Shown: in pieces, positions 1,809 through 64,000 of the stretch
Layout: the number at the start of each line of letters is the position of its first letter
Position numbering within the stretch: the first letter of the stretch is position 1
From: an uncultured virus (IMG/VR IMGVR_UViG_3300034418_005550)
Taxonomy: Duplodnaviria > Heunggongvirae > Uroviricota > Caudoviricetes
DNA length: 64,000 nucleotides
Strand: one strand, 5' to 3'
IMG/VR virus record: IMGVR_UViG_3300034418_005550
The notes under the pieces: generated by a model
What the model was told of the DNA's origin: nothing
Databases searched by the model: none
The model's input: the letters and a program-made list of their open reading frames with translations, nothing else
Program-made: the position numbers and the translations under genes

Positions 1809-1818
1809 TTGAACTCCT

Positions 1819-2148
1819 TTAGGTTATTTCTAAAATACTTGCAAACGCCTGTAAATCGCCAGACGCATTACCGCCTGTCAAATCAATCTTATCGCCATTT
1901 TCTAAAAATAATTTAGAAGTTCCTGCTAACTCAATTGTGCTATCTGCTGGAACTGAAATAGTATAAGCAATTTTTGCACTACCAGAAGTTCCGTCAATAA
2001 CATCAGCAGTAATTGTATCATCGGTAGCACCATCAACATTTGTTATTCTAAGTGTTACAACTATTCCAGATCCTCCACTTGAATTTGTATATAATGTTTG
2101 AGCAGATGATGTGACATCTAAATATGCATTTTTGTAAGCCTCAGCCAT
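1819..2148 (-). CDS. Virion tail-associated protein
   Basis: 109 aa, nearly identical to 35341-35670. Confidence 0.6.
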   Translation of the reverse strand: MAEAYKNAYLDVTSSAQTLYTNSSGGSGIVVTLRITNVDGATDDTITADVIDGTSGSAKIAYTISVPADSTIELAGTSKLFLENGDKIDLTGGNASGDLQAFASILEIT

Positions 2149-2158
2149 TTTTTCCTCT

Positions 2159-2608
2159 CTATCCTAAAGCCAATATTAGTCCAACAGTTGCCCCTGCGGG
2201 TGCTAAATTTGCAATATCTTGAGCTGTTGTTTTCTTAATATTATTAGAATCTGATATGTCCCCTATAATAACTTCATCGCCACCCGCTACAGTTACAGAA
2301 GTTTGAGAATTGACATCAACTGCTAAAGATACCGCACCAGAAGTTCCTCCACCAGATAAGCCTGCACCTGCTGTAATTCCTGTAATATCGCCCTCGCCAA
2401 TAAAATTTGCCCAAGAAGATCCATTGTAAAATTGTAAATCGTTTGAATCTTTTAGATAACAAAACATGCCTTCTTCAGCAGAAGTGACAGCTGCGTCTCT
2501 GGCGGTAGAGTCGTCAAAAACCATGACTACTTGCTCTTGTATGTAATTATTGAAGTCTGAGGCATTAACCAGATCGCCTGTGCTCCAAACTTTAAAACCT
2601 GCTCCCAT
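2159..2608 (-). CDS. Minor tail/fibre adaptor protein
   Basis: GDITGITAGAGLSGGG fibre-like motif; follows distal tail gene; homolog 35681-36133. Confidence 0.6.
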   Translation of the reverse strand: MGAGFKVWSTGDLVNASDFNNYIQEQVVMVFDDSTARDAAVTSAEEGMFCYLKDSNDLQFYNGSSWANFIGEGDITGITAGAGLSGGGTSGAVSLAVDVNSQTSVTVAGGDEVIIGDISDSNNIKKTTAQDIANLAPAGATVGLILALG

Positions 2609-2630
2609 ATTATTAATTGCTCCTTTTTGT

Positions 2631-3899
2631 CTAAGTATAAACCAATCTTGTGCCTTCGCCCAACTTTGCTTGTCCTAATACCCAACCTGCTGAACCTGCA
2701 GGGCTAAGTGTTAAATTCCAATTCCAAGTTTGTGTGCTTGCATTTACATTATGGCTTATTGATTCAATCCATAATTCATCAGTATAGTCAGAAGAATCTG
2801 GATTGACTACTTTGACCAATATTCTGTCACCGAAGTTTAAATCAAGAGCTTTAGGCCATATATTGACATCTTCTCGTGGATTAATTTTTAAGCTATCAAT
2901 TCTAACAATAGGCAAAGCAGTTTCGCTAATTTTTTGTTCAATAATACTTAAGACATCAGAATCATTTACATTGATAGTCGATTGAGTTGAGGCTATTGGT
3001 CTGTATCTAGTTATAGAATTTGCGTCAGAAACAAATTGAGATGAGCCACCAGATCTAGTCCATTCGTAAATATTAATAACCTCATTTAAGTCAAAAGATG
3101 AAACAACATCTTGATAAGGCAAATATGTTCCGTCATTACTAAAAGACGCTTGAACATTTACAGCTTTAGTGTTTGATAATCTATAATCACGATTTCTAAA
3201 TATTGCCGTTCCGTCTGGATTCATAAAAAATTGGGCATTCTCAGCTTTTTCTACTTCTCTTAATAATGTAAGAACATCAGAAGTTTTTGTTGATTGAGTT
3301 TGAACATTTACAGTTCCAGTATTTATATTACGAAGAGATGAGGGGAATTGTATTTGGTCTAATAATCTTGTAATTCTTGCACTAGATAATTCTTCTTCAT
3401 CTTCATATCCCATTACAGTTGATATACCTATTTCAGAAAAACCACCCCTGCCTAATCTCCACCCAGATGAATTTAAAGTGATTGAGTTAAATATTTTAAA
3501 AGCATCGACACAATTAAAACGAACAACTGAATCTGCACCAATTGCAGGATAAGATACAGGGATAGTATCAAGAAAACCATAAAACAAATCATATGTAGTT
3601 GAATCATAAGTTGCTTTTATTCTTACTACCTTATGAGGTTGAATTTTAGTAATACCATTTACATTGTCATAATAAGGTGAAGAAGTATTGTTAGGATTAA
3701 ATCGATTGTCTGCATTTGATAATAATATTTGTGCAGTTCCTCCAACGAATTGTCCTAATTCATTTGCTCTTCCCCTTTTTGTAGTAAATTGTCTTACATA
3801 AGTTGATACATCTGTAAAAGTTATTGAGCTGTCGAATGGATCAGAATCAAAACCAATTTCAACAGTTAAATCAACATTGGAATCAAAAGCAACACTCAT
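2631..3899 (-). CDS. Minor tail protein (distal tail/baseplate hub-like)
   Basis: 422 aa directly after tape measure; homolog 36144-37412. Confidence 0.7.
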   Translation of the reverse strand: MSVAFDSNVDLTVEIGFDSDPFDSSITFTDVSTYVRQFTTKRGRANELGQFVGGTAQILLSNADNRFNPNNTSSPYYDNVNGITKIQPHKVVRIKATYDSTTYDLFYGFLDTIPVSYPAIGADSVVRFNCVDAFKIFNSITLNSSGWRLGRGGFSEIGISTVMGYEDEEELSSARITRLLDQIQFPSSLRNINTGTVNVQTQSTKTSDVLTLLREVEKAENAQFFMNPDGTAIFRNRDYRLSNTKAVNVQASFSNDGTYLPYQDVVSSFDLNEVINIYEWTRSGGSSQFVSDANSITRYRPIASTQSTINVNDSDVLSIIEQKISETALPIVRIDSLKINPREDVNIWPKALDLNFGDRILVKVVNPDSSDYTDELWIESISHNVNASTQTWNWNLTLSPAGSAGWVLGQAKLGEGTRLVYT

Positions 3900-6385
3900 T
3901 AAAAAGCCACATTAATTCCACGCCTTGCACCTTCTTGAAGTGCTTTAGCTACTGCCTCTTCAATATCAGTTCCACTTGCTAAGGCTGCACCTACATTAAC
4001 TGTAACCAAATTTGTATTATTATATCTTGCTAATCCACCGCCAATGTCTGTAAAAGTACCTCTTGTTGGAACTTCTGCACCACCACTTGGTGGAAATTTT
4101 AATCCGCCACCAGATCCGCCACCAGATCCGCCACCACTTGAAGGAATACTTGGGGCTGATACGCCTACACGACTTTGCTTAGCAAACATTTCATCATACA
4201 TTTTGTTTATCTTTCCAATTTCGATTCCAGTTATTTGAGCCATTTTTTTAATAGCGTCTTCATAGCCTTTTGTTCCCTCACCGAAACTGGCTAGAGCTTT
4301 TGTTAATTGTTCTTGTGCTATTGCTTGTTCAAGTGTATTTCTAAAACTTTGTTCTGATACTTTGTTCAATTCTTTTTGAGCCTCAGTGACTCTATCTATA
4401 GCCTCAGTTCTTAAGTCTTCAGCTCTTGTTAAATCTTTTTCAGCTTGTTCTACAGCTCTTAATGCGTCTTTTTCTTCTCTGGATAACGCTGTAGATTCTT
4501 CTATCAATTTTGCTAACTCTTGTTGAGCTAGTTGTAGCTCTAGTTTTTGGATCGTGGAGAGTTCTTCTTGTTCTTGTAAAGCTCTTATTGTTTCTTTTTG
4601 TCGCTCTATTGCTAACTGTTCTTCTAATGTAACTTTTGCCCCTATACCTTGAACACTTGCTAGATGTTGTTTTGCTTTATCTAAATTCTCTGTAGCTTTT
4701 TCTACTTGTTCTTCAGCTTTAATTTGTTTTTCTAGTGCTTTATTTCTTTTATTTTCTGCGTTATTGACTCTGTCTTGAATAGATTGCATTTTATCAAGTG
4801 CATTCATTACTGACTGCAATCCGCCTAGTAATCCGTCTTCATATGCTTGTGCAGTTTCAAGTGCTTCTTTTGCGTTTTCATCTAAGGCGATTGCGTTTTG
4901 GTCAAGTAAAGAAGTTAATTGTGAAACTGTGTAATTTGTTCCATCTAAAATTTCGTCAAGTGATAAAGTTGAATCCACCAGATCTTCTGTTTTTTTACCT
5001 ACAAAACCTGTATAATATTCTTGCAATTTATAAGCATTAGTAAGTCGTTCTGCTTTTTCTGCAGCCTCTTCATATTTATCATTACTTTTTCCAATAGCCT
5101 TAAATAATTTACTTAAGCCTGTAACCACTAATGAAATACCTGGAAATAAAGCAAAAGACAATATTTTTGCAACTGTTTTTAATTTTACGCCCATTATTTC
5201 AATTGGTGCATTTGCACTATTTAATCTATTTCTAAAATTTTGTATTCTTTCAACAGATGTAGTTAAATTTGAAACCAAATTTTTAAGAAAAGGCATTAAT
5301 TCTTCGCCTAATGTTATTGCTAAATTTTGTAAATTATTTCTAAGTAGTTGTGTCTGTGCTTTAAAACTTTCAAGTTGTTTTTCTGCAATAGCTTGTGTAG
5401 TTCCGCCTGCTCTTCTTAATTCATGTTCATAATTACGGATCTGGTCTGTCGAACCACTTAAAATCTTTACTGCGTCTGCTACACCACGATTAAGTCCTAA
5501 TTGATCCAAAGTCGCAGCTTTCATTTCATCTGACATTGGCCCCAAAACTCTATCAAGTTCTTCAACTATATCAGCAACATTCTTCATCTTGCCTTCTGAA
5601 TCGAACATTTGAAGTCCTAGCGCAGCAAATGCCTCACTATTTTTTGCGGTAGCTCTTGGAATATCTCGAAGAACTTGGTTAAGTTTTTCACCACCCTCAG
5701 CACCTTTAACACCCCTATCAGCGAATGCTGCAAGAACGGCTACACCCTCTTCTACATCTTTATTAACAACCTTTAAAGCTGCACCTGCTTTAGTAGTTAA
5801 AGCCTCAGCAAATTGTTGAACACTTGCGTTTGCTAAAGTGTTAGCTTTTACAAGAACATCTGTAACTCTTGTTAATCCCATGAGGTTTTCTCTTGCGTCT
5901 TTTGAAGTTAAACCTAAAGCTGATTGAGCGTCAGTTGCTAAGTCGGTAGCTGTAGCCATGTCGAACATACCTGCTTGGGCAAAGGCAGCAACTTGGGGCA
6001 AAGCTGCAATAGATTGTTCTGCGTCTAAACCTGCAGACGCTAAGAAGAAGAACGCCTCAGCTGATTGGTCAGCAGAAATTGTAGTTTCAGTTGCTACTTG
6101 TCTTGCCGCCATAGCCATTTGCTCTTGCTGAAGAGTAGTAGTTTTCATGATTGCAAGAGATTGCGTCATCTTGTCTTCAAATTCAGTAAATGCTTGAACA
6201 GATTCTATAACGCCTTTTGCTAAAGCAAGAACTGCACCTGCTGCGACAGCTGCACCAACTTTTGCAAAATTTGCTAGTTTAGTTCCTGCAAGTTTTCCGC
6301 TTTTACCTAATGTCTCAAGCTGACCTCTAGCTACATTTGCCCCTTTTGTAGCTATCCTAATTATTAAGTCTGCACCTGCTCCCAT
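3899..6385 (-). CDS. Tail tape measure protein (TP901-family core)
   Basis: 828 aa, Ala-rich, FEDKM...SAEAFFFLASAGLDA motifs, coiled coil. Confidence 0.93.
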   Translation of the reverse strand: MGAGADLIIRIATKGANVARGQLETLGKSGKLAGTKLANFAKVGAAVAAGAVLALAKGVIESVQAFTEFEDKMTQSLAIMKTTTLQQEQMAMAARQVATETTISADQSAEAFFFLASAGLDAEQSIAALPQVAAFAQAGMFDMATATDLATDAQSALGLTSKDARENLMGLTRVTDVLVKANTLANASVQQFAEALTTKAGAALKVVNKDVEEGVAVLAAFADRGVKGAEGGEKLNQVLRDIPRATAKNSEAFAALGLQMFDSEGKMKNVADIVEELDRVLGPMSDEMKAATLDQLGLNRGVADAVKILSGSTDQIRNYEHELRRAGGTTQAIAEKQLESFKAQTQLLRNNLQNLAITLGEELMPFLKNLVSNLTTSVERIQNFRNRLNSANAPIEIMGVKLKTVAKILSFALFPGISLVVTGLSKLFKAIGKSNDKYEEAAEKAERLTNAYKLQEYYTGFVGKKTEDLVDSTLSLDEILDGTNYTVSQLTSLLDQNAIALDENAKEALETAQAYEDGLLGGLQSVMNALDKMQSIQDRVNNAENKRNKALEKQIKAEEQVEKATENLDKAKQHLASVQGIGAKVTLEEQLAIERQKETIRALQEQEELSTIQKLELQLAQQELAKLIEESTALSREEKDALRAVEQAEKDLTRAEDLRTEAIDRVTEAQKELNKVSEQSFRNTLEQAIAQEQLTKALASFGEGTKGYEDAIKKMAQITGIEIGKINKMYDEMFAKQSRVGVSAPSIPSSGGGSGGGSGGGLKFPPSGGAEVPTRGTFTDIGGGLARYNNTNLVTVNVGAALASGTDIEEAVAKALQEGARRGINVAF

Positions 6386-26839: not shown

Positions 26840-27493
26840 ATGGTAAATGCCATAGATTTTAAAAATAGTTTTGTTGCCTTTTCTGGAGGCAAAGATAGTG
26901 TGGCTGTATCAAAATATGTAAGAGAAGAATTAGGTTTATCATTACCTCATGTCGCAGTAATAAATCATGAACTAGATTATGAAGAACATATTGATTATAT
27001 AAGAGATTATTGCGATGATAATAAAATAGAATTGCACTTCCAGATCCTTAAAAATCGTGGCCTAGATTATGTAATACATAATCCAAAATATATATTCCCT
27101 TTTGATTCAAAAGTAAAAGGTGATTGGTTTAGAAAATTTCAACAATATGGAATTAAAAAATTTGCAAAAGACAATAATTATTCAACAATAATTTATGGCC
27201 GAAGAATAGCAGACGGCAATAATATTAAATCAGAATATTATAAAACAGCTGATAATCTTTTTCATTATTTTCCTTTAAGGATCTGGAGCAACGAGCATAC
27301 AAATTATTACATATCAAAGGAAGAGCTGTCGCCTATATATGAAACAGAATTAGGTAAAAGGCGTGGAACACACACTATCAATATTGCTAATGAATATAAT
27401 GGAACAGATGAAATTGGGCTTGAATTAGTAAAATCAATTAGTCCAGATAAAGCAAAAATTGTTGAAGAGCTTTTAAAAATTAAATATAAATAA
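26840..27493 (+). CDS. PP-loop/PAPS-reductase family protein
   Basis: VAFSGGKDS, IYGRRIAD, PLRIWS. Confidence 0.8.
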   Translation: MVNAIDFKNSFVAFSGGKDSVAVSKYVREELGLSLPHVAVINHELDYEEHIDYIRDYCDDNKIELHFQILKNRGLDYVIHNPKYIFPFDSKVKGDWFRKFQQYGIKKFAKDNNYSTIIYGRRIADGNNIKSEYYKTADNLFHYFPLRIWSNEHTNYYISKEELSPIYETELGKRRGTHTINIANEYNGTDEIGLELVKSISPDKAKIVEELLKIKYK

Positions 27494-27544
27494 TTACACT
27501 TTTTTATATATATTCTATATAATGGATTGTATGAAAGGGGAATT

Positions 27545-27742
27545 ATGAAAGTAATTACAGCAGTAGAAATTGATTGCATTAATCCAAATTGTAATGATGA
27601 TTGTTGCTATGAAGACAAACAACATTTTAATTTAGTTTATGTAATTAATAATGAAGTAGAAGAATATAACTGTGACAATTGTGGAGCAGTTTTACCTATT
27701 GACAAAGAGTTAATAGAACAATTAAAAAGGGGGCATGAATAA
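27545..27742 (+). CDS. Small Cys-rich hypothetical protein
   Basis: GGGGG RBS, upstream TATAAT; CINPNC...CDNC. Confidence 0.6.
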   Translation: MKVITAVEIDCINPNCNDDCCYEDKQHFNLVYVINNEVEEYNCDNCGAVLPIDKELIEQLKRGHE

Positions 27743-28002
27743 TGTTAGCTATAAACTCAACTTTTAATGAAGTTGAAATGGATGTAAAAGCAGGAATAAA
27801 AGTTAATGCTGTAGCAGCATTAAATTATGTTCTTGAATTGGAAGGTGAAATATGTTCGTTAGACAGAACATTTACTTCTAATTTAAGGCATTGTGTTTAT
27901 ATATTAAAAGAGAGAACTGCTAAAGAAATTTACAAAGAAGAATGTAAATGTGGTGGCTCGAATAGAAAACATAGTAAATATGTTTATGATTGGGCTAGTT
28001 AG
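27742..28002 (+). CDS. Hypothetical protein
   Basis: TAATG-coupled ORF followed by terminator. Confidence 0.6.
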   Translation: MLAINSTFNEVEMDVKAGIKVNAVAALNYVLELEGEICSLDRTFTSNLRHCVYILKERTAKEIYKEECKCGGSNRKHSKYVYDWAS

Positions 28003-42790: not shown

Positions 42791-42847
42791 TTGGTTTATC
42801 GAGAACACAAGCATAATATATAAGTATGTTAGATAATAAAAAAGGAG
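42791..42847 (+). promoter_or_regulatory. Phage B early-type promoter and leader
   Basis: TTGGTT..CGAGAACA..CATAAT, then ATGTTAGATAATAA-AAAGGAG leader shared with 54136-54194 and 58616-58668. Confidence 0.6.
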
Positions 42848-42852
42848 TTAAA

Positions 42853-43227
42853 ATGACATATTATCAAAGAGTAAAAGCATTTAGAGATAACCAACAAGTA
42901 TTATTAGATGATTTCTTAGCAGAAGTTGTTGCTACAGGTATTATTACAAAATCAACTGATAATAATTCTACTAACAGAAATAAAGTTTATTTTCAATTTA
43001 TTGCTAATAAATTTAATAAAAAAACTGTAAATAGTTTCAAAGACCATATTGTTAAATTAGAAGAAAAATTAGCTAAAGCTGATAATGAAATGGAAAAAGA
43101 TTTATATAAAGAAATAATTTTAGAAACTCAATACAATGTGCGTTTTTGGAATATTGCAAAACCATTATTTGAAGCTGATAGAAAATTAGAGCAAGTTAAA
43201 TATTTTGCAAGTAAAAATAATAGATAA
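42853..43227 (+). CDS. Moron-like hypothetical protein inserted antisense in morphogenesis operon
   Basis: Own promoter and AGGAG RBS; absent at equivalent site of phage A. Confidence 0.75.
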   Translation: MTYYQRVKAFRDNQQVLLDDFLAEVVATGIITKSTDNNSTNRNKVYFQFIANKFNKKTVNSFKDHIVKLEEKLAKADNEMEKDLYKEIILETQYNVRFWNIAKPLFEADRKLEQVKYFASKNNR

Positions 43228-54135: not shown

Positions 54136-54194
54136 ACTCCTTTTTATTATCTAACATATAAGATAATTATATACCTGTTATCGAGATATACCAA
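54136..54194 (-). promoter_or_regulatory. Sigma70-type early promoter plus conserved leader
   Basis: TTGGTA-17nt-TATAAT followed by ATGTTAGATAATAAAAAGGAG. Confidence 0.7.
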
Positions 54195-56959: not shown

Positions 56960-57006
56960 TTTTATAACTCCTATATCGTCAATAATTACAAGCTTTTCAG
57001 TCTTAA

Positions 57007-57063
57007 CACTTATACCAGAGAAATATCTCCTCTTGTCTGAGGGCAACCTCAGGTATGTTTTTT
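57007..57063 (+). repeat. Phage B dispersed repeat, copy 4 (degenerate)
   Basis: CACTTATACCAGAGA...GAGGGCAACCTCAGGTATGTTTTT. Confidence 0.6.
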
Positions 57064-57075
57064 CACTAAATAAAT

Positions 57076-57112
57076 AAAAATGGGCTAAAACCTAAGTCCT
57101 AGCCCATTTTTT
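57076..57112. terminator. Bidirectional intrinsic terminator
   Basis: AAAAATGGGCTA...TAGCCCATTTTT. Confidence 0.75.
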
Positions 57113-57136
57113 AGTACGATACAGGGATTATATGTA

Positions 57137-57607
57137 CTATTCTTCTTCAGTGTCTGAACTTACTTGTTCATCTGATTTTAATATATCGTGTAAGATAAAA
57201 TCTTCGTTTGCATACAAATGTAATGCAACTCCTAATTTCATACAAACTCTTTTAAAGCCGTCTGCTTCAGCTACTTTTAATCTTTCTGCGTCTGAATTCC
57301 AATTAAATGGATGTTCGCAAACTCCAGTACTTTCTTTTGTAACTTTTACTCCATTTATTTCAACTGTAAGCCTATAAGTGCAACCAACTAATACTTGTTT
57401 AGTTTCTTGCGTTTTAGGATTAGTTAAAGTTTCTTTCAAATGATAAGGAATGCTTTCATCAAAGTTACCAAATAATGCAATCATTTTTTGCCTTACCATA
57501 GAGTGTTCTACATAATTACCATATTTGCCTTTTGGTGGAGATTTAACTGCACCTTTGCCAAAAGGTTTTGATAATTCTGCATATATTGCTCTTGTTTCTT
57601 TATCCAT
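57137..57607 (-). CDS. Rad52/Sak-like single-strand annealing protein
   Basis: LKVAEADGFKRVCMKLGVALHLY. Confidence 0.78.
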   Translation of the reverse strand: MDKETRAIYAELSKPFGKGAVKSPPKGKYGNYVEHSMVRQKMIALFGNFDESIPYHLKETLTNPKTQETKQVLVGCTYRLTVEINGVKVTKESTGVCEHPFNWNSDAERLKVAEADGFKRVCMKLGVALHLYANEDFILHDILKSDEQVSSDTEEE

Positions 57608-57791
57608 TTTTATTACCTTTCATACTTACTACATCACTTGCTATCCATAAAGGACTTTTACCAACTAAGGTAAAAGGTTTAGGTAGCTTGTTATTATATT
57701 TCCACATCCAAACTGTATTTATTTGGACTTGATAATAATCTGCAATTTCTTTTACAGACCAATAAATGCTCCAAAAGTCTTTTTCTGTCAT
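57600..57791 (-). CDS. Small HTH DNA-binding protein
   Basis: SVKEIA.Y.QV..NTV..W...KLPKP...G.SPLW. Confidence 0.72.
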   Translation of the reverse strand: MTEKDFWSIYWSVKEIADYYQVQINTVWMWKYNNKLPKPFTLVGKSPLWIASDVVSMKGNKNG

Positions 57792-57793
57792 AA

Positions 57794-57985
57794 TTAGTCC
57801 TTTATTTCTAGTTCTTTAATTTTAGCCATAGAATTTTTATAATTTAAGTCAGCTATATGATATTTCATATCTTGTTTTGCCTGCCTAATTATTATTTCAT
57901 TTAGTCTTAGCAATTGTAAATTATTAAGGAAAAGTACAATTAATATACCTCCTAATAATAAAGTGCTAATATCTACTCCGAACAT
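57794..57985 (-). CDS. Hypothetical membrane protein
   Basis: N-terminal TM; GGAGG RBS. Confidence 0.55.
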   Translation of the reverse strand: MFGVDISTLLLGGILIVLFLNNLQLLRLNEIIIRQAKQDMKYHIADLNYKNSMAKIKELEIKD

Positions 57986-57986
57986 A

Positions 57987-58190
57987 TTATCCTCCTACTT
58001 TTCTTTTACTTACATATTTCATAAAGTTACAGCCGTCAAAAGTTGCTCTGCCCCATGCAGTACTTTCTGCATATTGAAAGCCTTTATCAGTTACTATATC
58101 GGTATAAAATAAATCTCCTACTTTTTCTGCTTTTTGGTAATAAAAAATATATCTCCAAGTGTGTTTAGTTTTTACAATTTTTGGGTACAT
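57987..58190 (-). CDS. Hypothetical protein
   Basis: ORF in early operon. Confidence 0.5.
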   Translation of the reverse strand: MYPKIVKTKHTWRYIFYYQKAEKVGDLFYTDIVTDKGFQYAESTAWGRATFDGCNFMKYVSKRKVGG

Positions 58191-58353
58191 AATTACTTCC
58201 AAACTATTGGAACATCTTTTTGATATTCTTCAGTCCATAATTCTATTTCAGTTTTCTTTTCTTTATAAAATATTTCAAAAATAGCTAATGGTAAAAGAAT
58301 TAATGATATTAGAAACATAATATTTAAAAACCAATATAAAAATTCTATATTCA

Positions 58354-58611
58354 TTATTTATTACCTCTAACTCTCTTAATTGCTTTTGCATTATGATTAA
58401 GTCCAATATTTGCATTATCTCCAATTTCAGTTAAATTAATATAACTTGTAATAATTGGATTAGTTAATTGAATAACTCTATCTGAACTAACAACATGAGT
58501 AAGTTGAATACTTTTACTACCTACACAGTCATCAATATCTAAATCATAACCAACATATTCTTTGCCAAATATTAGGTTATCATTTTCTTCTATTGCCTTA
58601 TATATTTTCAT
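58354..58611 (-). CDS. Hypothetical early protein
   Basis: Preceded by conserved promoter/leader TTAGATAATAAGGAG. Confidence 0.6.
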   Translation of the reverse strand: MKIYKAIEENDNLIFGKEYVGYDLDIDDCVGSKSIQLTHVVSSDRVIQLTNPIITSYINLTEIGDNANIGLNHNAKAIKRVRGNK

Positions 58612-58845
58612 ATATCTCCTTATTATCTAATATAAGATAATTATATAACCATTTTAGAATATAACAAACTACTATTTTAAAAAAAATAAAGCCCATAATT
58701 ATTACTAATTACAGGCTCTATTTAGTCCATGAAAGAAAACGAATAAATAATTTACTCAGAACAACAACCACATTGTCTTAAATATGTAAAGCATTCCTTT
58801 CTTTTATTATTGTTTAACTAATTATATATTAATAAGAAGATAAAT

Positions 58846-59385
58846 TTATTTAACTAATGATAAAAATTCGTTTCTAGTTTCGCTTTCTTCTCTAAATACT
58901 CCACGCATAACTGAAGTAATCATTTGTCCGTCAGTCTTAATTCCTCTTGCAACCATACATAGATGGGTTCCTATTCCATAAACTGCTACATCATATGTAT
59001 TTACTAAATCTCTAACTTCATTTGCAATATCAGAAACTAGTTTTTCTTGTAGTTGTAATTTATGTGCGTGTTTATGTGCTATTCTAGCAAATTTAGATAA
59101 TCCTAAAACTTTATCTCTAGTTATATAACCAATTGCTATTTCTGAACTAAACGGCATTAAATGATGTTCACATAAAGACCAAACTTTTATTCCTTTAACT
59201 ATAACCATTTGGTCTGCTTTTACTGCTTCAAAAGTTGTTCCAATTTTTCCTGCGTCATAATCTATAAACTCTTTCCAAAACTTTGCAACTCTTTTTGGTG
59301 TTTCTAATAATCCATCTCTATTTGGGTCTTCTCCAATTTCAATTAATAATTCTTTTATTAATTTTTCTATTTTTTCTTGTTGCAT
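58846..59385 (-). CDS. folE: GTP cyclohydrolase I
   Basis: GL.ETPKRVAK, SLCEHHLMPF, GLSKFARI, LQLQE, HLCMVARG. Confidence 0.96.
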   Translation of the reverse strand: MQQEKIEKLIKELLIEIGEDPNRDGLLETPKRVAKFWKEFIDYDAGKIGTTFEAVKADQMVIVKGIKVWSLCEHHLMPFSSEIAIGYITRDKVLGLSKFARIAHKHAHKLQLQEKLVSDIANEVRDLVNTYDVAVYGIGTHLCMVARGIKTDGQMITSVMRGVFREESETRNEFLSLVK

Positions 59386-60119
59386 TATTTACCTCTTTCA
59401 TCTGACCATAACAAGACATGCAATCTTGGAGATAAGTTATATCCTCTTTTTAGTATTTCATCTGATAGTTGCACCATATTTATAAAATGGTATTTATTAT
59501 TTTTGCCTTCAGGCATTATATAAACATTTTTTAAATCGTTTTCTTTTACTATTTCATCTACTTCAAATAAGTCATCTATTTCTTGTACTACAAATTTAAA
59601 AGCATAGTTTTGCGAATATTGCATATATTGTTCTAATACTTTTGGTTTAATAGTTTTTTCTTTTGGCATACCTGCATTTGATAATTTAGGACTAATATTA
59701 AAGTAATCTATAACATCAAAAAACTCATCATTTTTAGCTAATATTGTTCCATTTGTTTCAATTTCAATAACAAATCCTTTTTGTCTTAGATTTTTCATTA
59801 CATGAAATAATTTACTTTGTTGGCTCATTGGTTCGCCACCAGTAAAAACAATATGACTTCCAAAAGGTAAATTAAGGCTCATTATTTGTCCTACTACTTG
59901 CTCAACTGTAAAGCCAATAGTTTCTTTTTTAGGGTCATACTTAACTCCATTTTTACCTTTCCAGTCCCAAGTGTATGGAGTATCGCACCAATCACAAGTT
60001 AAATTGCAACCACTAACACGAATAAATGCACTAATCTTTCCAATAGTTTGCCCCTCGCCTTGAAATGTAGGTCCAAAAATTTCATTTATTCTAATTAAAG
60101 GTAAAGTTTTAGTATTCAT
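59385..60119 (-). CDS. queE: 7-carboxy-7-deazaguanine synthase (radical SAM)
   Basis: TFQGEG, GCNLTCDWCDT, FTGGEP, IETNGT, ISPK, SPRLH. Confidence 0.95.
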   Translation of the reverse strand: MNTKTLPLIRINEIFGPTFQGEGQTIGKISAFIRVSGCNLTCDWCDTPYTWDWKGKNGVKYDPKKETIGFTVEQVVGQIMSLNLPFGSHIVFTGGEPMSQQSKLFHVMKNLRQKGFVIEIETNGTILAKNDEFFDVIDYFNISPKLSNAGMPKEKTIKPKVLEQYMQYSQNYAFKFVVQEIDDLFEVDEIVKENDLKNVYIMPEGKNNKYHFINMVQLSDEILKRGYNLSPRLHVLLWSDERGK

Positions 60120-60486
60120 AATAACTTGCAATAGTTTTATCAGTTTCTTTTACACTTACTTTATTTAAAATATCTTTTTCTCCATATATTTCAATAAACA
60201 TTGCTTCAAATTCTTTATAAAAATGTTTAGCCATTTTTTCAGCAGTAGGATTAAAGTTTAAAACATCGTTTAAATGCCTATGGTCTAATTTATTATCTAT
60301 ATATTCTTTAATAAAATTTAATTCTCCATAGTCAATTATGAAACCAACTTCATCTAATCTCATAGATATTAACTCAACAATTACTACATAATTATGTCCA
60401 TGCAACCTAGCACATTGGTGTTCTTTTGGTAAATTAAGTAATTGATGACTTGCAGAAAAAGTAAATTCTTTAGCTATTGAGTACAT
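60109..60486 (-). CDS. queD: 6-carboxy-5,6,7,8-tetrahydropterin synthase
   Basis: FSASH, CARLHGHNY, LDH..LN, PTAE, ET. Confidence 0.95.
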   Translation of the reverse strand: MYSIAKEFTFSASHQLLNLPKEHQCARLHGHNYVVIVELISMRLDEVGFIIDYGELNFIKEYIDNKLDHRHLNDVLNFNPTAEKMAKHFYKEFEAMFIEIYGEKDILNKVSVKETDKTIASYYEY

Positions 60487-60514
60487 TTCTTACAACCTTT
60501 CAATGTTTATGGTC

Positions 60515-60560
60515 AAAAAAGACCTGTGAGCTTTTGTTCTCTCGGTAGGAAAAAGCATTC
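60515..60560 (-). repeat. Phage B dispersed repeat, copy 5, between queC and queD
   Basis: Reverse complement GAATGCTTTTTCCTACCGAGAGAACAAAAG matches 50996-51025 with one mismatch. Confidence 0.8.
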
Positions 60561-60574
60561 ATTGGGTAGTAGCC

Positions 60575-61357
60575 CTACTTATTCTCTTGAAATTCTTGTT
60601 GTAATTTAAGAGCGTTTTCTAAGACTTCGTCCCAACCTCCTACATACTCAACTGGGTCTTGTGTTCCTAATTGCCAAAAAGCTAATATTCGTTCAACATC
60701 AGAGCCAGTTTTTCCACTAGCTCTTCCTTTTTCATCAGGTGCATAACTTGTATTAGTATTTTTTAGAACTGTATTAAAGTCTAAATTTAACTTAACGCAG
60801 TTTGCGTCAGTATCTTGCAATATAGTAAATTTATCTCCATTTAAGTAAGGAAGTTTTAAACTTACTAAATCACTATCCCAATTGCCTACTTTAAAAGCAT
60901 TCATTGCCTCTACATAAAATTCAGGTCTGCAATCAGGATAAATTGCGTGGTCGCCACTATGAACTCCAAGTCCAATATCTACTTGGCAATTTTCTTTTGT
61001 TGCTATTGATAATGCATAACCTGCAATCATAGAAAAGAAAATCATATTTCTATTTGGAACTACTGTAAGTTTCATATTTTCTTGCTCATAAAAGCCCTCT
61101 GGCACATCAGTATCGCTACTAACTAATGCAGAGTTATATAAATTACCTATTTGAGATACATCTAATACTGTATGTTCTACTTCATAGCCATTTTCTTTTA
61201 AATAAGCTAAATTATCAGATAATCTTTCTAATTCAAGTTTATGTTTTTGTCCATAATCAAAACTTAATGCAGAAACTTTATAATCATTTGCTAAAAAATT
61301 AATTAAAAGTCCTGTACTATCCATGCCTCCACTAAGGCTTAATACTGCTCTTTTCAT
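60575..61357 (-). CDS. queC: 7-cyano-7-deazaguanine (preQ0) synthase
   Basis: SGGMDST, FDYGQKH..E, VPNRN, YPDCRPEF. Confidence 0.93.
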   Translation of the reverse strand: MKRAVLSLSGGMDSTGLLINFLANDYKVSALSFDYGQKHKLELERLSDNLAYLKENGYEVEHTVLDVSQIGNLYNSALVSSDTDVPEGFYEQENMKLTVVPNRNMIFFSMIAGYALSIATKENCQVDIGLGVHSGDHAIYPDCRPEFYVEAMNAFKVGNWDSDLVSLKLPYLNGDKFTILQDTDANCVKLNLDFNTVLKNTNTSYAPDEKGRASGKTGSDVERILAFWQLGTQDPVEYVGGWDEVLENALKLQQEFQENK

Positions 61358-61752
61358 TATTTCTCCAAATATCCTACTGAAGTAGTTTCAATTCCACCTC
61401 TTTTAGATTGTTTATTAGTTACTTTTATCCATTTAGGCTCTAAAGTATCAAATAATTTTTGTGCAATATCACTTGCTAATGCCTCGCAAAAATGTCCTAC
61501 TTCTCTAAATGTCCATAAATATAGCTTTAATGATTTACTTTCAATACATAATTCATCAGGCTGATATTCAATAGTTAATTCTCCAAAGTCAGGTTGTCCT
61601 GTCATTGGACATAAACTTGTCAATTCATCAGTCCAAAATTTTACTGTTTGAGTATTTTTTGGTGCAGGAAAAGTTTCAAGTTGGTCTAATGGATTTCTTG
61701 TCTTTTTTCCTAATATAGTTAGGTCTTTAGTATATTCTGGCTCATGTGCCAT
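61357..61752 (-). CDS. queF: NADPH-dependent preQ0 reductase (type I)
   Basis: TSLCPMTGQPDF, QueF motif ESKSLKLY, RGGI. Confidence 0.92.
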   Translation of the reverse strand: MAHEPEYTKDLTILGKKTRNPLDQLETFPAPKNTQTVKFWTDELTSLCPMTGQPDFGELTIEYQPDELCIESKSLKLYLWTFREVGHFCEALASDIAQKLFDTLEPKWIKVTNKQSKRGGIETTSVGYLEK

Positions 61753-61757
61753 TTTGT

Positions 61758-61792
61758 CCTCCTAGTTTTGTTTAAGGTTTTCTAGTACTTGA
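61758..61792 (-). promoter_or_regulatory. Candidate preQ1 class I riboswitch overlapping queF RBS
   Basis: UCAAG UACUAGAAAAC CUU AAACAAAACUAG GAGG-ACAAA-AUG: short P1, U..CUAG..C loop, A-rich tail, CUAG/CUAG pseudoknot into SD. Confidence 0.6.
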
Positions 61793-61823
61793 GATAAGGT
61801 TAGCAGGTATAAAAAATTTGTCT

Positions 61824-61851
61824 ATTATATAATCTGTTCTCGCTATAACAA
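61824..61851 (-). promoter_or_regulatory. Promoter of que operon
   Basis: TTGTTA-16nt (contains CGAGAACA)-TATAAT. Confidence 0.6.
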
Positions 61852-61866
61852 CTAAAATAAAAAAAA

Positions 61867-61895
61867 CTTAGAACAAAAAGTAGAAAAAGTATAAT
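61867..61895 (+). promoter_or_regulatory. Putative promoter of the large ncRNA
   Basis: Perfect TATAAT at 61890-61895 in A-rich context; -35 weak. Confidence 0.45.
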
Positions 61896-61899
61896 ATAG

Positions 61900-62855
61900 G
61901 TTTATTATATTTTTTATAAGGTTATGGTTAGCCTTAAAAAATAGCAACCGAGTAGAGCGAGAGCTAACCCAAGTAAAATTGGTAGGTAAGAAATTAGAAA
62001 TTCAACCTTGATGAAGACTTAAACAGAGAGCTTTTGTGAGCATAAACTAGTACCTGAAAATGAAACTTGGGGAGGTAATTAGCCCACTTGTTAAGAAGTA
62101 AAGCAAGAAGTAAGAAGTAAGGTAGGCGTATTGACTACAGGATTGAGAATTTCCATTAAAAAATAATTTAAAGTAGGATTGGTATAAACTTAACTAGCCA
62201 AAAATCTAGAGTATGCTCTCACAAAAGCTCTTTGTAACTGAGTTCTTATGGATATGAGTAGTTGTTTGGCAAGTAGTTCAGGAATGTACCTGCCTTTAGT
62301 TGAAATACTTTAGGGCTACGCTATAAAGCATATATTGATTCGAAGCAATATGAACTACTTAAAACTTATAAACCATTTAGTAACCAATCCTGAAATACGG
62401 CATGTCGAAAAATGTTAGATAAGTAATTTAAGTAAGCAAACAGATACGCTCATATCCGTAAGGACTTAGTTAATTTGAGAGATTAAAGATATAGGTTGTG
62501 AAGGTAACTTCTCATTTGGGAAGCTTCATCTCAGGTGGTCGTAGCGTAATGCACGAGCCATATACTGAAAGGTATATAAGCCTGAAGGAATAACTTGCAG
62601 TACAATATCCTTTTAGGTTAGTTGTGGAGTGTGGTGGGTTGTTAATTTAATCAAAGTGGTTTTGACAAATTACTTTGAACTTTAACTGTAAGCAAGATTG
62701 TCATTATTTAGCCTGTATCTTTAATCTCTTAATTTAGATTTATAACTCCCAATAGGGTAGAATAGATGATATATTCACTGATAACTCCGTGATTATTATC
62801 TAACATACGAGAAGACTTTAAGGACTGGCAACAGTCTTTAAGGTCTTCTTTTTTT
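61900..62855 (+). ncRNA. Large (~900-950 nt) highly structured non-coding RNA, GOLLD/ROOL-like scale, family unassigned
   Basis: No ORF of 60 aa or more in 1.1 kb; helices 62024-62044/62212-62234, 62235-62259/62448-62472, 62476-62498/62709-62731, 62271-62280/62351-62360; substitutions are G-U on + strand; GNRA loops; terminator. Confidence 0.85.
62809..62855 (+). terminator. Intrinsic terminator of ncRNA
   Basis: 19-bp stem, GCAA tetraloop, U-run. Confidence 0.85.
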
Positions 62856-63345
62856 ACATTGGTGTAGGTTTTACAATATATCTTTCTTGAGTTTTAGGTA
62901 ATGGTGCTAATTTTTTAGTGATTATATTCCAATAAGTAAAAGGTAAGCCAGTTTTTGATATTCCATGCCACCTGTAGCCTAATTTTTCATAAAATTTAAT
63001 ACTTGGTTTATTTGCAAAAAACCTTAATAACATTACATAATTTTCTTTCATATCTTCTTCTAACATTTTCATCATTTCTGCACCAATATTTTTACCTCTA
63101 TATTGTTCTAATACGAAAAAATGTCTTAAAGTACAATGTCTTGGTTCTCTTTTTGTATAAGAAATAAACATAAAACCTTTATCTTCTAAGCTAAAAACTT
63201 TAGAACTTTCTTTATCCCATTGTTTTTCAACTCGCCAATCATACAAAGCATTTTTTAAATGACTTTTAGAACTTAAACTACCACCTTTTGTATGTTCTAT
63301 TTCTTTTAATAATTTTTCCATTTCTTTTTCAGTTTTTATTATCAT
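62854..63345 (-). CDS. GNAT-family acetyltransferase
   Basis: FFVLEQYRGKNIG motif A, N..SIKFYEKLGY motif B; start uncertain. Confidence 0.85.
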   Translation of the reverse strand: MIIKTEKEMEKLLKEIEHTKGGSLSSKSHLKNALYDWRVEKQWDKESSKVFSLEDKGFMFISYTKREPRHCTLRHFFVLEQYRGKNIGAEMMKMLEEDMKENYVMLLRFFANKPSIKFYEKLGYRWHGISKTGLPFTYWNIITKKLAPLPKTQERYIVKPTPM

Positions 63346-63745
63346 AGTCCCAACACTTTCTACTTGCGTTCCAATGGTGTAAGCCGTCATTAATCATTAA
63401 CCATTTAGCTACTTTTGTAGCTACTATTTTATTAAATGGAGTAGTTGTTATTTTTAATTTAGGTTTTAACCAAGCCCAAGTTTTATCATTAAATTGAAAT
63501 AATCCTCTATCAGTTGTACCATTTTTATTGTAATTTATAGCGTTTTCTCTGCCAGAACTTTCACAATAAATAATTAGTAAAGGTATTAAAGCTTTATCTA
63601 AACCAAATTCATCAACTATTAATTCAATATGTTCTTCTACTGCACTAACTTTATATTGTATTTCTCTGCATTCAATATATTCATTTAAAGTATCAGGAGT
63701 TAAAAAAGGGTAAGGTATAGCACAAGCGATTATTAACTCTAACAT
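63329..63745 (-). CDS. Lytic transglycosylase (SLT-like)
   Basis: YCESSG, N.NGTTDRGLFQFN..TW; homolog of 26159-26707. Confidence 0.82.
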   Translation of the reverse strand: MLELIIACAIPYPFLTPDTLNEYIECREIQYKVSAVEEHIELIVDEFGLDKALIPLLIIYCESSGRENAINYNKNGTTDRGLFQFNDKTWAWLKPKLKITTTPFNKIVATKVAKWLMINDGLHHWNASRKCWDYDNKN

Positions 63746-63757
63746 TTTTGTATTTTT

Positions 63758-63895
63758 TTAGCTTTTTGTAAGTTGCTCAATTAAATGTACGCCTTTTCTC
63801 ATAGGCTCCATTGTAATATCTTCTCCACTTTTAAAAATAAATTGAGGAGTATCTCCTGTATATTCAATTGCGTGCAACTTTTTTAATTCTGCCAT
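63758..63895 (-). CDS. Small hypothetical protein
   Basis: 45 aa, positional homolog of 28022-28183. Confidence 0.5.
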   Translation of the reverse strand: MAELKKLHAIEYTGDTPQFIFKSGEDITMEPMRKGVHLIEQLTKS

Positions 63896-63926
63896 ACATA
63901 TAAGTATAGTATATTTTTAGCTATAT

Positions 63927-64000
63927 TTACAATAATTCTAAATTTGCCCAACCTTTTTCATTTATTGTAAATGTTAATACTGCAGGGTGGCTCCATAGTC
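63927..64000 (-). CDS. Metallophosphoesterase, C-terminal end (partial)
   Basis: LWSHPAVLTFTINEKGWANLELL, same as end of 28223-29410. Confidence 0.85.
   Translation of the reverse strand, partial: LWSHPAVLTFTINEKGWANLELL

What the first reader, a model, noticed from the sequence alone, without database searches (positions are those of the whole stretch)
61900..62855. Giant ornate phage ncRNA (~950 nt) divergently transcribed from the preQ1 operon
Seen: the only ORF-free kilobase in an otherwise packed genome, with TATAAT at 61890 and a 19-bp GCAA-loop terminator at 62809-62855. Three consecutive domain-closing helices: 62024-62044/62212-62234 (one 2-nt bulge, one G-U), 62235-62259/62448-62472 (25 bp, 4 G-U), 62476-62498/62709-62731 (23 bp, 4 G-U). 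Nested stems include 62271-62280/62351-62360 (perfect 10 bp), GAAG-GUAA-CUUC, UAUACU-GAAA-GGUAUA and UCAAAGUGGUUU/AAAUUACUUUGA. Candidate cross-domain pseudoknots: 62175-62183 (or 62138-62145) with 62383-62392, and 62412-62422 with 62796-62806. The departures from perfect inverted repeats being G-U on the plus strand indicates selection on RNA, not DNA. Known: GOLLD and ROOL are phage-associated giant RNAs of similar size and unknown function. Inference: this is a member of such a class or a new one. I recognise no group I/II intron, RNase P or tmRNA core. Phage A has no counterpart, so it is an accessory module.
Basis: partly seen in the sequence, partly recalled or inferred. Interest (0 to 1): 0.93.

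Follow-up and report, generated by a model that had tools for sequence, protein, structure and literature searches.

The report
Modular structured RNA array in phages
The gene-free kilobase is a real member of an uncatalogued family of long phage non-coding RNAs, built as a string of modules that are each closed by a long double-stranded stem and carry fast-changing inserts, with function still unknown.

Summary
Window 61753-62853 is the only ORF-free kilobase of this phage. Its + strand carries three contiguous long-range helices of 18+, 25 and 24 bp and a 19-bp terminator. Together these hold 12 G-U pairs and no A.C mismatch, so the helices are strand-specific.

No Rfam 15 family matches, so it is not GOLLD, ROOL, OLE, HEARO, an intron, RNase P or tmRNA.

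Homologues exist. Exact scans with stem arms found 18 other IMG/VR contigs from protein-level related siphoviruses. There the array follows an exonuclease gene, in the same orientation as the genes. Compensatory changes support helices H1 and H3. H2 never varies. D2 and D3 have conserved cores and hypervariable inserts that are reshuffled among near-identical phages, and the number of modules varies.

It therefore looks like beads on a string, not one giant fold.

The 3' 100 nt is a separate, lineage-specific module. It is perfectly antisense to a 15-nt leader plus Shine-Dalgarno sequence shared by at least four operon starts of the same phage.

Transcription strand and function were not shown. 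My best guess is an RNA processed or recognised at its dsRNA stems, with the inserts as specificity elements.

The parts
61868..61895 (+). Promoter-like site: weak -35 TTAGAA (61868-61873), 16-nt spacer, perfect -10 TATAAT (61890-61895)
   Evidence: Read from the sequence. The consensus scan did not list it because the -35 scores only 3 of 6. A -10-like element sits at the matching place in L007 and L009. The L040 variant reads TATTAT. This is weak evidence.
61897..62022 (+). Leader module: hairpin 61908-61943 and conserved AAAATAGCAA(C) at 61938-61948
   Evidence: Homologous to the leaders of L009/L047 (alignment z 9.5) and of 10 array-bearing loci (nhmmer E 1e-11 to 1e-12). One stem pair changes A-U to G-C between groups, read by eye in the alignment.
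62023..62235 (+). Module D1, closed by helix H1 (62023-62050 / 62206-62235). The interior is purine-rich, with TAAGAAGTAA repeated at 62092 and 62111.
   Evidence: Across 10 distinct homologous copies, 97.8% of cells are paired, 6 of 23 pairs change on both sides, and 0 of 500 shuffles reach the covariation score.
62235..62472 (+). Module D2, closed by helix H2 (62235-62259 / 62448-62472). It also holds an inner helix 62262-62268/62437-62443, a conserved central hairpin 62331-62337/62346-62352 and two variable inserts.
   Evidence: Alignment of 16 distinct copies: the 35-nt 5' block, the 3' block and the central hairpin never vary. H2 keeps 3 invariant G-U pairs. Only 1 pair covaries.
62475..62732 (+). 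Module D3, closed by helix H3 (62475-62498 / 62709-62732). It also holds hairpin P2 (62498-62503/62524-62529 with inner 62508-62511/62520-62523), a conserved three-way-junction core at about 62531-62585 and a variable 3' half.
   Evidence: H3 in 9 copies: 98.2% of cells paired, 5 of 19 pairs change on both sides, 0 of 500 shuffles reach the score. P2 covaries and the core is invariant in the 5-copy subfamily.
62737..62808 (+). 3' module, specific to this lineage and not part of the array family. Hairpin 62763-62802 carries the anti-Shine-Dalgarno UAACUCC in its loop (62779-62788). The anti-leader segment is 62793-62807.
   Evidence: Shared only with L007. The 28-nt block GATAACTCCGTGATTATTATCTAACATA is identical between the two, while the module overall is about 87% identical. 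It is a perfect complement of the leader motif. Predicted duplexes are -36.0 and -28.7 kcal/mol, against a median of -14.4 for 42 gene starts.
62809..62855 (+). Intrinsic terminator of the + strand: 19-bp stem, GCAA loop, seven T. It overlaps the GNAT stop codon.
   Evidence: Kept in L007 with two compensatory changes (A-U to G-C and G-C to A-U), read by eye in the alignment. On the - strand no T run follows the hairpin.
54144..54158 (-). Leader motif TATGTTAGATAATAA between a TTGGTA-17-TATAAT promoter and the Shine-Dalgarno sequence of the 369-aa gene. Putative target of the 3' module.
42825..42839 (+). Second exact copy of the leader motif, ahead of the + strand 124-aa ORF (42853-43227). Putative target.
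58620..58634 (-). Copy of the leader motif with one mismatch, after promoter TTGTTA-16-TATAAT and ahead of the 85-aa ORF (58354-58611)

Best explanation
The region is a non-coding RNA gene read from the + strand. It belongs to a family of modular phage RNA arrays that is absent from Rfam 15.

A family member has a conserved leader followed by one to at least four modules of about 150-300 nt. Each module folds on its own and is closed by an 18-28-bp helix rich in G-U pairs. Inside the modules are small conserved cores (the D2 central hairpin, the D3 three-way junction) and inserts that are swapped among near-identical phages.

I infer that the modules act independently, like beads on a string. 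I also infer that the long, nearly uninterrupted helices are the handles by which the RNA is processed or bound, most likely by RNase III-type cleavage that would release RNAs of roughly 200-280 nt with paired ends. The variable inserts would then be specificity elements under fast turnover.

In this phage the array is inverted relative to its neighbours. It runs into a separate, lineage-specific antisense module that can pair with the shared 5' leader and Shine-Dalgarno sequence of at least four operons of the same phage. It ends at a strong intrinsic terminator.

Shown: the helices, their strand bias, the homologues, the covariation, the modular variation and the antisense complementarity.
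Inferred: transcription from the + strand, processing, independent action of modules, and any regulatory effect.
For: - Strand-specific helices. The window has a 25-bp, a 24-bp and an 18-bp long-range helix plus the 19-bp terminator stem, with 12 G-U and no A.C. The - strand maximum is 14 bp.
- The same bias holds across the family. In 20 sequences there are 46 stems of 17 bp or more on the array strand and 6 on the other strand. Among the distinct stems, 78 of 518 pairs are G-U.
- Homologues: BLAST at 58-90% identity in all 20 non-self loci.
- Covariation: H1 has 6 of 23 pairs changed on both sides; H3 has 5 of 19. In both, 0 of 500 shuffles reach the score, and slid controls pair only 36-64% of cells. 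The inner D3 helix covaries.
- One-sided changes in the window's H1 and in the family's H1-H3 are only G-C or A-U to G-U.
- Modularity: arrays differ in module count and inserts although the flanking exonuclease gene is 96-98% identical. L047 has one module. L009 has one module plus an 88-aa ORF bracketed by its own 22-bp helix.
- + strand terminator with a U tract, conserved with compensatory changes.
- GC and AT skew flip to the sense-like pattern on the + strand across the region.
- Contigs from 3 of the 4 RNA libraries laid cover parts of the array.
- Antisense module.
Against: - No strand-specific read data. The RNA-library contigs also cover all flanking genes, mostly at higher depth, and DNA carry-over cannot be excluded.
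- The promoter is weak apart from the -10.
- The module interiors are not more stable than shuffles.
- H2 never varies, so it gives no covariation. Its invariance could equally reflect a DNA-level or protein-recognition constraint, or recent spread.
- No RNase III evidence of any kind. One adapter-ended contig stops at 62710, the top of the H3 3' arm, not mid-helix.
- L009/L047 stems contain C.A mismatches that would be G-U on the other strand (read by eye).
- The antisense match was found post hoc. The - strand copy could be a decayed copy of a dispersed promoter-leader cassette.
Confidence: 0.5

Rival explanations
1. One large ornate RNA that folds and acts as a single unit, possibly as a multimer, in the manner of GOLLD or ROOL. 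The three domains would be parts of one architecture held together by tertiary contacts.
For: - Size of about 960 nt, phage origin and unknown function.
- The three helices meet at one junction with 0-3 nt linkers.
- Conserved cores such as the D3 three-way junction with a GAAA-type loop could make tertiary contacts.
- There is an 11-nt D2/3'-module complementarity.
Against: - Module number and order vary (1 to at least 4). D2 is duplicated in L189 and L191, and D1 or D3 is absent in some arrays. This holds among phages 96-98% identical in the flanking gene.
- The proposed cross-domain partners do not co-occur. Of 5 arrays with the D1 AGGAUUGG element, only the window has the D2 partner.
- ATGTTAGATAA occurs in 9 other loci (7 distinct arrays), none of which has the 3' partner.
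- No CM hit to GOLLD or ROOL even at E up to 10.
Confidence: 0.15
2. A cis-acting structured spacer inside an early operon. It would be a processing, insulation or stability region, comparable to the RNase III sites between genes of T7-type phages, with no trans function. The window copy would then be an inverted, possibly orphaned, copy.
For: - In 12 of the 19 other loci (10 distinct arrays) the array is co-oriented with its neighbours. It lies between an upstream exonuclease gene and a conserved promoter-like TTGCAT-17-TAATAT plus small ORFs.
- No terminator was found by my simple check after the last module in 16 of the 17 other loci checked; L180 gave one candidate.
- Long stems are classical RNase III substrates (established knowledge, not tested here).
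Against: - 700-1100 nt is very large for a spacer in 34-39-kb genomes that otherwise have almost no gaps.
- Conserved interior cores and a conserved leader with its own -10-like element are not needed for a spacer.
- The window copy keeps all helices and G-U pairs although it is inverted and has its own terminator.
Confidence: 0.17
3. A DNA-level element. Options are cassettes bracketed by inverted repeats that move or recombine (like MITEs, REPINs or invertible segments), or strand-specific hairpins in single-stranded DNA made during recombination or replication next to the exonuclease and annealase genes.
For: - Invariant outer stem sequences with swapped interiors, and combinatorial shuffling of V1 and V2.
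- Presence or absence between close relatives.
- The two L009 stems are homologous to each other, and one of them brackets an ORF.
- Location between an exonuclease gene and a Rad52-like gene.
- G-T pairs are also tolerated in ssDNA hairpins (established knowledge).
Against: - The three stems of one array have different sequences, unlike the ends of one transposon family.
- The elements are found only in arrays behind the leader, never dispersed.
- The strand bias (12 to 0 in the window; 46 to 6 in the family) is not expected for duplex-DNA recognition sites.
- No inverted form was seen in any contig, and no strand-changing joint in the RNA-library contigs.
- The terminator with a U tract and the sense-like skew point to a transcript.
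Confidence: 0.13
4. The functional transcript is the - strand: read-through from GNAT into the preQ1 operon, with the region serving as a long structured 5' UTR.
For: - All neighbouring genes are on the - strand.
- No - strand terminator follows GNAT.
- The leader-like motif at 62793-62807 is in sense orientation on the - strand.
Against: - Helices break up on the - strand: maximum 14 bp and 61 kcal/mol weaker.
- The QueF operon has its own predicted promoter at 61851-61824, and RNA-library contigs from 3 runs end at 61776/7.
- In the other phages the array strand is the sense strand.
Confidence: 0.05

Closest known systems
GOLLD and ROOL RNAs (Rfam RF01998, RF03087): large phage- or prophage-associated RNAs of unknown function
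   Same: Hundreds of nucleotides long, non-coding, carried by phages as accessory elements, function unknown. GOLLD was first seen in lake metagenomes (recalled; abstract seen).
   Different: - No covariance-model match even at E up to 10.
- The architecture here is a variable string of stem-closed modules with hypervariable inserts, not one conserved multi-pseudoknotted fold.
- No tRNA genes nearby.
- Multimer formation was not tested.
RNase III processing stems of phage and rRNA polycistronic transcripts (T7 early and late R sites; stems flanking 16S and 23S rRNA)
   Same: Long double-stranded stems inside long phage transcripts. In rRNA operons the two arms flank the released RNA, as they do here. 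This comparison is from established knowledge, not tested here.
   Different: - T7 sites are local hairpins with internal loops between genes, not 200-nt-spanning helices around non-coding cargo.
- Cleavage has not been shown here.
- The host and its RNase III are unknown.
Phage antisense repressor RNAs with several targets: P1/P7 c4 RNA and P4 CI RNA (recalled)
   Same: This comparison applies to the 3' module only. It is a small phage RNA complementary to a repeated sequence next to ribosome binding sites in the phage's own operons, and may be cut from a longer precursor.
   Different: - No sequence or Rfam relation.
- The targets here are the 5' leaders of four dispersed operon starts.
- No experimental evidence. 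An immunity role is not implied.
Correia elements, MITEs and REPINs (inverted-repeat elements that are transcribed and can be cut by RNase III; recalled)
   Same: Units of 100-300 nt bounded by inverted repeats of about 20-26 bp, with presence or absence between close relatives and conserved ends around variable interiors.
   Different: - Not dispersed; always in one array behind one leader.
- Each module type has its own stem sequence.
- The strong G-U strand bias and compensatory changes point to RNA pairing.
- No transposase or target-site duplications were seen.

Membership tests
GOLLD (RF01998) / ROOL (RF03087) / OLE / HEARO / raiA | Match to the family covariance model (sequence plus consensus structure) | tested here: not met
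   There were 0 matches at gathering score in the 64-kb window. None of these families appeared among the 9 chance-level hits at E up to 10 in 61700-62950. There were 0 hits at E up to 0.5 in 17 homologous loci.
Group I / group II introns, RNase P RNA, tmRNA, tRNA-like | Match to the Rfam models; tRNA or tmRNA detected by ARAGORN | tested here: not met
   no hit; 0 genes in the window.
Structured non-coding RNA (generic) | Helices kept by compensatory substitutions among homologues | tested here: met
   - H1: 6 of 23 pairs changed on both sides, 97.8% of cells paired.
- H3: 5 of 19 pairs, 98.2% paired.
- In both, 0 of 500 shuffles reach the covariation score.
- The inner D3 helix P2 covaries.
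- H2 is invariant and so uninformative.
- The sequences are related to each other, so the shuffle counts are not probabilities.
Structured non-coding RNA (generic) | Transcribed from the predicted strand, with defined ends | tested here: inconclusive
   RNA-library contigs cover 61927-62447 and 62111-62710 and two 151-nt pieces, but carry no strand information and also cover the flanks. Terminator and -10 are predicted only.
RNase III-processed precursor | Uninterrupted dsRNA of about two helical turns or more; cleavage products with 2-nt 3' overhangs | not testable with these tools
   The helix lengths of 18-28 bp fit. Cleavage could not be tested. The only mapped fragment end in the array (62710, one run) is not mid-helix.
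MITE / REPIN-like mobile DNA | Many dispersed copies with the same terminal inverted repeats; target-site duplications | tested here: not met
   The H2 arm occurs once per strand-sense in the 64-kb window, with its partner arm as the only near match. In the other contigs, copies are found only inside arrays. H1, H2 and H3 arms are not similar to each other.
Trans-acting antisense sRNA (3' module) | Extended complementarity to target mRNAs at the ribosome binding site; seed conserved among relatives; own terminator | tested here: met
   - 15 of 15 nt plus a 7-nt anti-Shine-Dalgarno segment match the leaders at 54144 and 42825, and the copy in G001 at 31236. The copy at 58620 has 1 mismatch.
- The 28-nt block is identical in L007.
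- Terminator.
- A regulatory effect was not tested.

The most novel reading that the evidence does not exclude
The array is a hypervariable RNA cassette locus that takes part in an arms race. Invariant stem-and-core scaffolds would display exchangeable inserts that act as decoys, sponges or antisense or guide-like elements against host defence RNAs or proteins, or against rival phages. New inserts would be acquired by recombination at the conserved scaffold sequences. That would be an RNA-level counterpart of cassette systems such as shufflons or CRISPR arrays, carried in the early accessory region of a phage group.
Probability: 0.2. Interest if true: 0.9.

Novelty: new variant of a known kind. 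Interest (0 to 1): 0.72.

Why it matters
Very few large structured RNAs are known from phages, and none has an assigned function. This family adds one with a different building plan. It has independently closed modules, invariant dsRNA stems that keep their G-U pairs, small conserved cores, and inserts that turn over between phages that are otherwise almost identical.

Such turnover in an early accessory region is what one expects of host-interaction or counter-defence loci, but here without any protein. The family is small and well delimited: one leader and a handful of module types. The modules are short enough for in vitro transcription, RNase III assays, chemical probing and cryo-EM.

The attached antisense module also gives a concrete, testable case of a phage RNA aimed at a leader shared by several of the phage's own operons.

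Tried and rejected
**Searches that found no homologue of the body**
- GenBank phages, blastn: no match.
- Five QueF-linked relatives: only the 5' or 3' modules matched.
- 50 of the 80 capsid-related IMG/VR loci found were searched: only 15-26-nt chance matches.
- Exact H1-arm, 3'-module and leader patterns in viral contigs.
- Leader pattern in metagenome contigs: 22 stretches, of which only L039 (the same record), L040, L037/L042 and L047 are related.
- Leader pattern in species genomes: 10 stretches, none related.
- Capsid protein in species genomes: no prophage relative, so the host stays unknown.
- The homologues appeared only when the H2 and H3 arms were used as exact patterns.

**RNA libraries**
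- Contigs of four metatranscriptome runs were laid on 57000-64000.
- They give no strand and no usable depth ranking. Parts without cover prove nothing.
- No variant positions inside the array appear in the rows shown; 150 further rows were not shown.

**Ideas tested and dropped**
- Hidden coding capacity under recoded stops.
- Paralogy among D1, D2 and D3.
- Antisense matches of the array body to the phage's own genes: 51 runs of 14 nt or more, against 25-53 in shuffles.
- D2's AAUGUUAGAUAAG as a purpose-built decoy of the leader. The same insert occurs in arrays of phages that lack the leader motif and the 3' module.
- A T7-like podovirus identity for the exonuclease-linked group. No RNA polymerase hit was found, though the controls did not ring either, and tblastx shows they are relatives of the window's siphoviruses.
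- Comparable ORF-free arrays in 8 long capsid-related records: none. G034 has an unexplained gene-poor 4 kb without Rfam hits.

**Closed or not possible**

**Literature**
- Two searches and passages of PMC10690425 did not show this family.
- A search of that paper's supplements found nothing, but three of its files could not be searched. Pieces of the family may be among its 8,495 unnamed candidates.
Full report
**What the window is.** The 64-kb window holds two syntenic siphovirus genomes laid end to end. ORF maps and PHROG hits to tape measure, major tail, capsid, portal and terminase proteins show this. The second genome equals a 38,869-bp IMG/VR record, G001 (window position = record position + 34,008). 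An identical copy of the region lies in a second contig. Around the finding all genes are on the - strand: FolE, QueE, QueD, QueC and QueF (58846-61752) on one side, and a GNAT acetyltransferase and a lysozyme-like gene on the other.

**The observation.**
- 61753-62853 has no ORF longer than 31 aa and none under recoded stops. It is the only gap of 250 nt or more in the record.
- The + strand folds to -275.4 kcal/mol (z -5.5), against -214.0 (z -4.7) for the - strand.
- Contiguous WC+GU helices are 25 bp (62235-62259/62448-62472, 4 G-U), 24 bp (62475-62498/62709-62732, 4 G-U), 18 bp (62023-62040/62218-62235, extended to 26 bp over a bulge) and the 19-bp terminator stem.
- In 200 shuffles the longest stem averaged 13.3 bp, with a maximum of 20. 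The - strand reaches only 14 bp.
- The four long helices hold 12 G-U pairs and no A.C mismatch.
- GC and AT skew switch to the sense-like sign on the + strand across the region.
- The terminator (19 pairs, GCAA loop, T7) is the best in 57000-64000 and has no T run on the - strand side.
- The -10 TATAAT at 61890 is perfect, but the -35 is weak.
One correction: the module interiors alone are no more stable than dinucleotide shuffles (z +1.4, -1.1, -1.3).

**Known families.** No Rfam 15 model reaches gathering score in the window. At E up to 10 in 61700-62950 only nine chance-level hits appear, none to GOLLD, ROOL, OLE, HEARO, introns, RNase P or tmRNA. ARAGORN finds nothing. Seventeen homologous loci also give no hit at E up to 0.5.

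**Close relatives lack the body.**
- A phage with 98% identical QueF (L007) has only 286 nt between GNAT and QueF. It keeps the left flank up to about 61860 and the last ~150 nt (62705-62862), including the terminator with two compensatory changes. It lacks about 800 nt.
- A complete relative with 89% identical QueF has a 57-nt gap and no trace of the RNA.
- 50 of the 80 capsid-related loci were searched, and 8 long records were scanned for gaps. None has it.
- A near-identical strain (L040, cut off at 62098) differs at 61893, 61959 and 62024. The last change turns the C-G at the foot of H1 into U-G.

**Homologues.** The exact H2 5' arm (21 nt) occurs in 20 stretches of IMG/VR. The H3 arm occurs in 4. 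That gives 18 contigs besides the window's record and its identical copy. All 20 non-self loci align to parts of 61858-62803 at 58-90% identity.
- Their flanks show no nucleotide similarity to the window.
- tblastx shows that the one complete record (G057, 34,065 bp) is a protein-level relative of the window's phages.
- There the array follows a phrog_284 'exonuclease' gene directly, in 8 of the 9 upstream ORFs examined; one follows a terminase gene instead.
- It runs in the same direction as the genes and ends at a conserved TTGCAT-17-TAATAT plus Shine-Dalgarno sequence, ahead of small ORFs with no family.
- In the window's phage the homologous exonuclease gene lies about 1-2.2 kb downstream of the array's 3' end, just beyond the window end. 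Lysozyme and GNAT lie between the two, and the array is inverted.

**Architecture of the family.**
- Each array starts with the leader (nhmmer E about 1e-11 in 10 loci).
- The leader is followed by modules of recurring types: D1, D2, D3, D4 and at least one other. Each type has its own closing helix.
- Composition varies. Examples are D1-D2-D4, D1-D2-D3, D1-D2-D2-D3 and D2-D3-D4 with further unassigned stretches.
- L047 has the same leader with a single module. L009 has a single module plus an 88-aa ORF bracketed by a homologous 22-bp helix.
- Yet the neighbouring exonuclease gene is 96-98% identical within the main group and 82-94% between groups.
- Across the 20 sequences, 46 stems of 17 bp or more lie on the array strand and 6 on the other. 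78 of 518 pairs in the distinct stems are G-U.

**Comparative support for structure.**
- H1 (10 copies): 97.8% of cells paired; 6 of 23 pairs change on both sides; one-sided changes are only G-U to A-U or G-C; 0 of 500 shuffles reach the covariation score; slid controls pair 37-64%.
- H3 (9 copies): the outer 13 bp never vary, the inner pairs covary (5 of 19 pairs), 98.2% of cells paired, 0 of 500 shuffles reach the score.
- The sequences are related to each other, so these counts are not probabilities.
- H2 (16 copies): 23 bp are invariant except one G-U/G-C position. It is uninformative, but strikingly conserved.
- D2 has invariant 35-nt ends, an invariant inner helix and an invariant central hairpin with loop UUCGAAG or UUAUAAG. 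Between them lie two inserts of 0 to about 100 nt. These fall into at least six and five unrelated types (by eye) and occur in mixed combinations.
- In the 5-copy D3 subfamily, a hairpin next to H3 covaries and a ~55-nt three-way-junction core is invariant.
Their partner motifs do not co-occur among arrays.

**The 3' module.**
- 62737-62855 is not part of the array family. Only the window lineage and L007 have it.
- Its best-conserved block, 28 of 28 nt identical to L007 (the module overall is about 87% identical), is the exact complement of TATGTTAGATAATAA plus a GGAGTTA Shine-Dalgarno context.
- That motif sits between the -10 and the Shine-Dalgarno sequence of operon starts at 42825 (+), 54144 (-), 58620 (-, one mismatch) and record position 31236 (+).
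- The anti-Shine-Dalgarno bases lie in a hairpin loop.
- Predicted duplexes with the two best leaders are -36.0 and -28.7 kcal/mol, against a median of -14.4 for 42 gene starts. These leaders were found through the match, so this ranking is not independent.
- Relatives without the module (G003, G030, G037) lack the motif.
- The - strand copy has no promoter in front and no conserved ORF behind.
- I read this as a candidate trans-antisense regulator. The rival reading is a decayed copy of a dispersed promoter-leader cassette.

**Expression.** Six RNA-library runs hold 28-70% of the region's sampled words. Contigs of four runs were laid. In three of them contigs cover parts of the array: 61927-62447, 62111-62710 and two 151-nt pieces. 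They also cover all flanking genes, and they have no strand and no usable depth ranking. Three runs have adapter-ended contigs at 61776/7, probably a 5' end of the QueF operon RNA. One run has such an end at 62710.

**Reading.**
- The finding is a genuine member of a structured, strand-specific, non-coding element family that Rfam does not hold.
- The variable module count, the independent closure of each module and the insert turnover argue for modules that act singly, not for one giant fold.
- The long, G-U-bearing, almost uninterrupted helices are the most constrained parts. The most economical role for them is as dsRNA handles for processing or binding. RNase III is the obvious candidate but is untested.
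- Function remains unknown.
- Rivals are: one global fold (0.15), a cis-acting spacer (0.17), a DNA-level cassette or ssDNA structure (0.13), and a - strand transcript (0.05).

**Novelty.**
- Not in Rfam 15.
- Two literature searches and one paper's passages showed nothing alike.
- The unnamed candidates of PMC10690425 could include pieces. A search of that paper's supplements found nothing, but three files could not be searched.

Noticed in passing
window 1-33600 versus 33600-64000: The window is two syntenic siphovirus genomes end to end. The second equals a 38,869-bp IMG/VR record. The first has no array; at the matching place it carries a + strand module of protein genes (26840-28002).
   Followed up: partly
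window 42825-42839 (+), 54144-54158 (-), 58620-58634 (-); G001 record 31236 (+): A dispersed promoter-leader cassette: a -35 element, 16-17 nt, a -10 element, about 7 nt, TATGTTAGATAATAA, then the Shine-Dalgarno sequence. It heads at least four operons whose first genes have no Pfam family. With up to 3 mismatches there are 28 matches, against 11.3 expected.
   Followed up: partly
window 61776-61777: In three RNA-library runs, contigs end here with sequencing adapter. This is probably a 5' end of the - strand QueF operon RNA, about 40 nt downstream of the predicted promoter at 61851-61824.
   Followed up: no
window 58846-61752: A complete FolE-QueE-QueD-QueC-QueF set, as in phages that make 7-deazaguanine bases. 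No transglycosylase (DpdA-like) gene was identified among the proteins scanned.
   Followed up: no
L009 1008-1330 (- strand of the locus): An 88-aa ORF with no family is bracketed by a 22-bp helix whose arms are homologous to the stem of the neighbouring non-coding module. A stem-closed module can therefore hold a coding cassette.
   Followed up: partly
window 62331-62352 and all 16 D2 copies: The invariant central hairpin of D2 has a loop AUUCGAAG or AUUAUAAG. Its UUCGA/UUAUA core resembles a T-loop (resemblance recalled, not tested).
   Followed up: no
L165 (G034) 683-4907: A capsid-related phage record has about 4 kb with five ORF-free gaps of 312-1038 nt, no Rfam hit and no long stems. It is unexplained; another genetic code was not tested.
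   Followed up: partly
L189 and L191: Two D2 modules stand in tandem in one array. The 3' arm of the first can also pair with the 5' arm of the second, giving alternative folds.
   Followed up: no
window 62092-62120: D1 holds a purine-rich run with TAAGAAGTAA twice, 19 nt apart. The D1 interior is less structured than shuffles (z +1.4) and could be a single-stranded binding platform.
   Followed up: no
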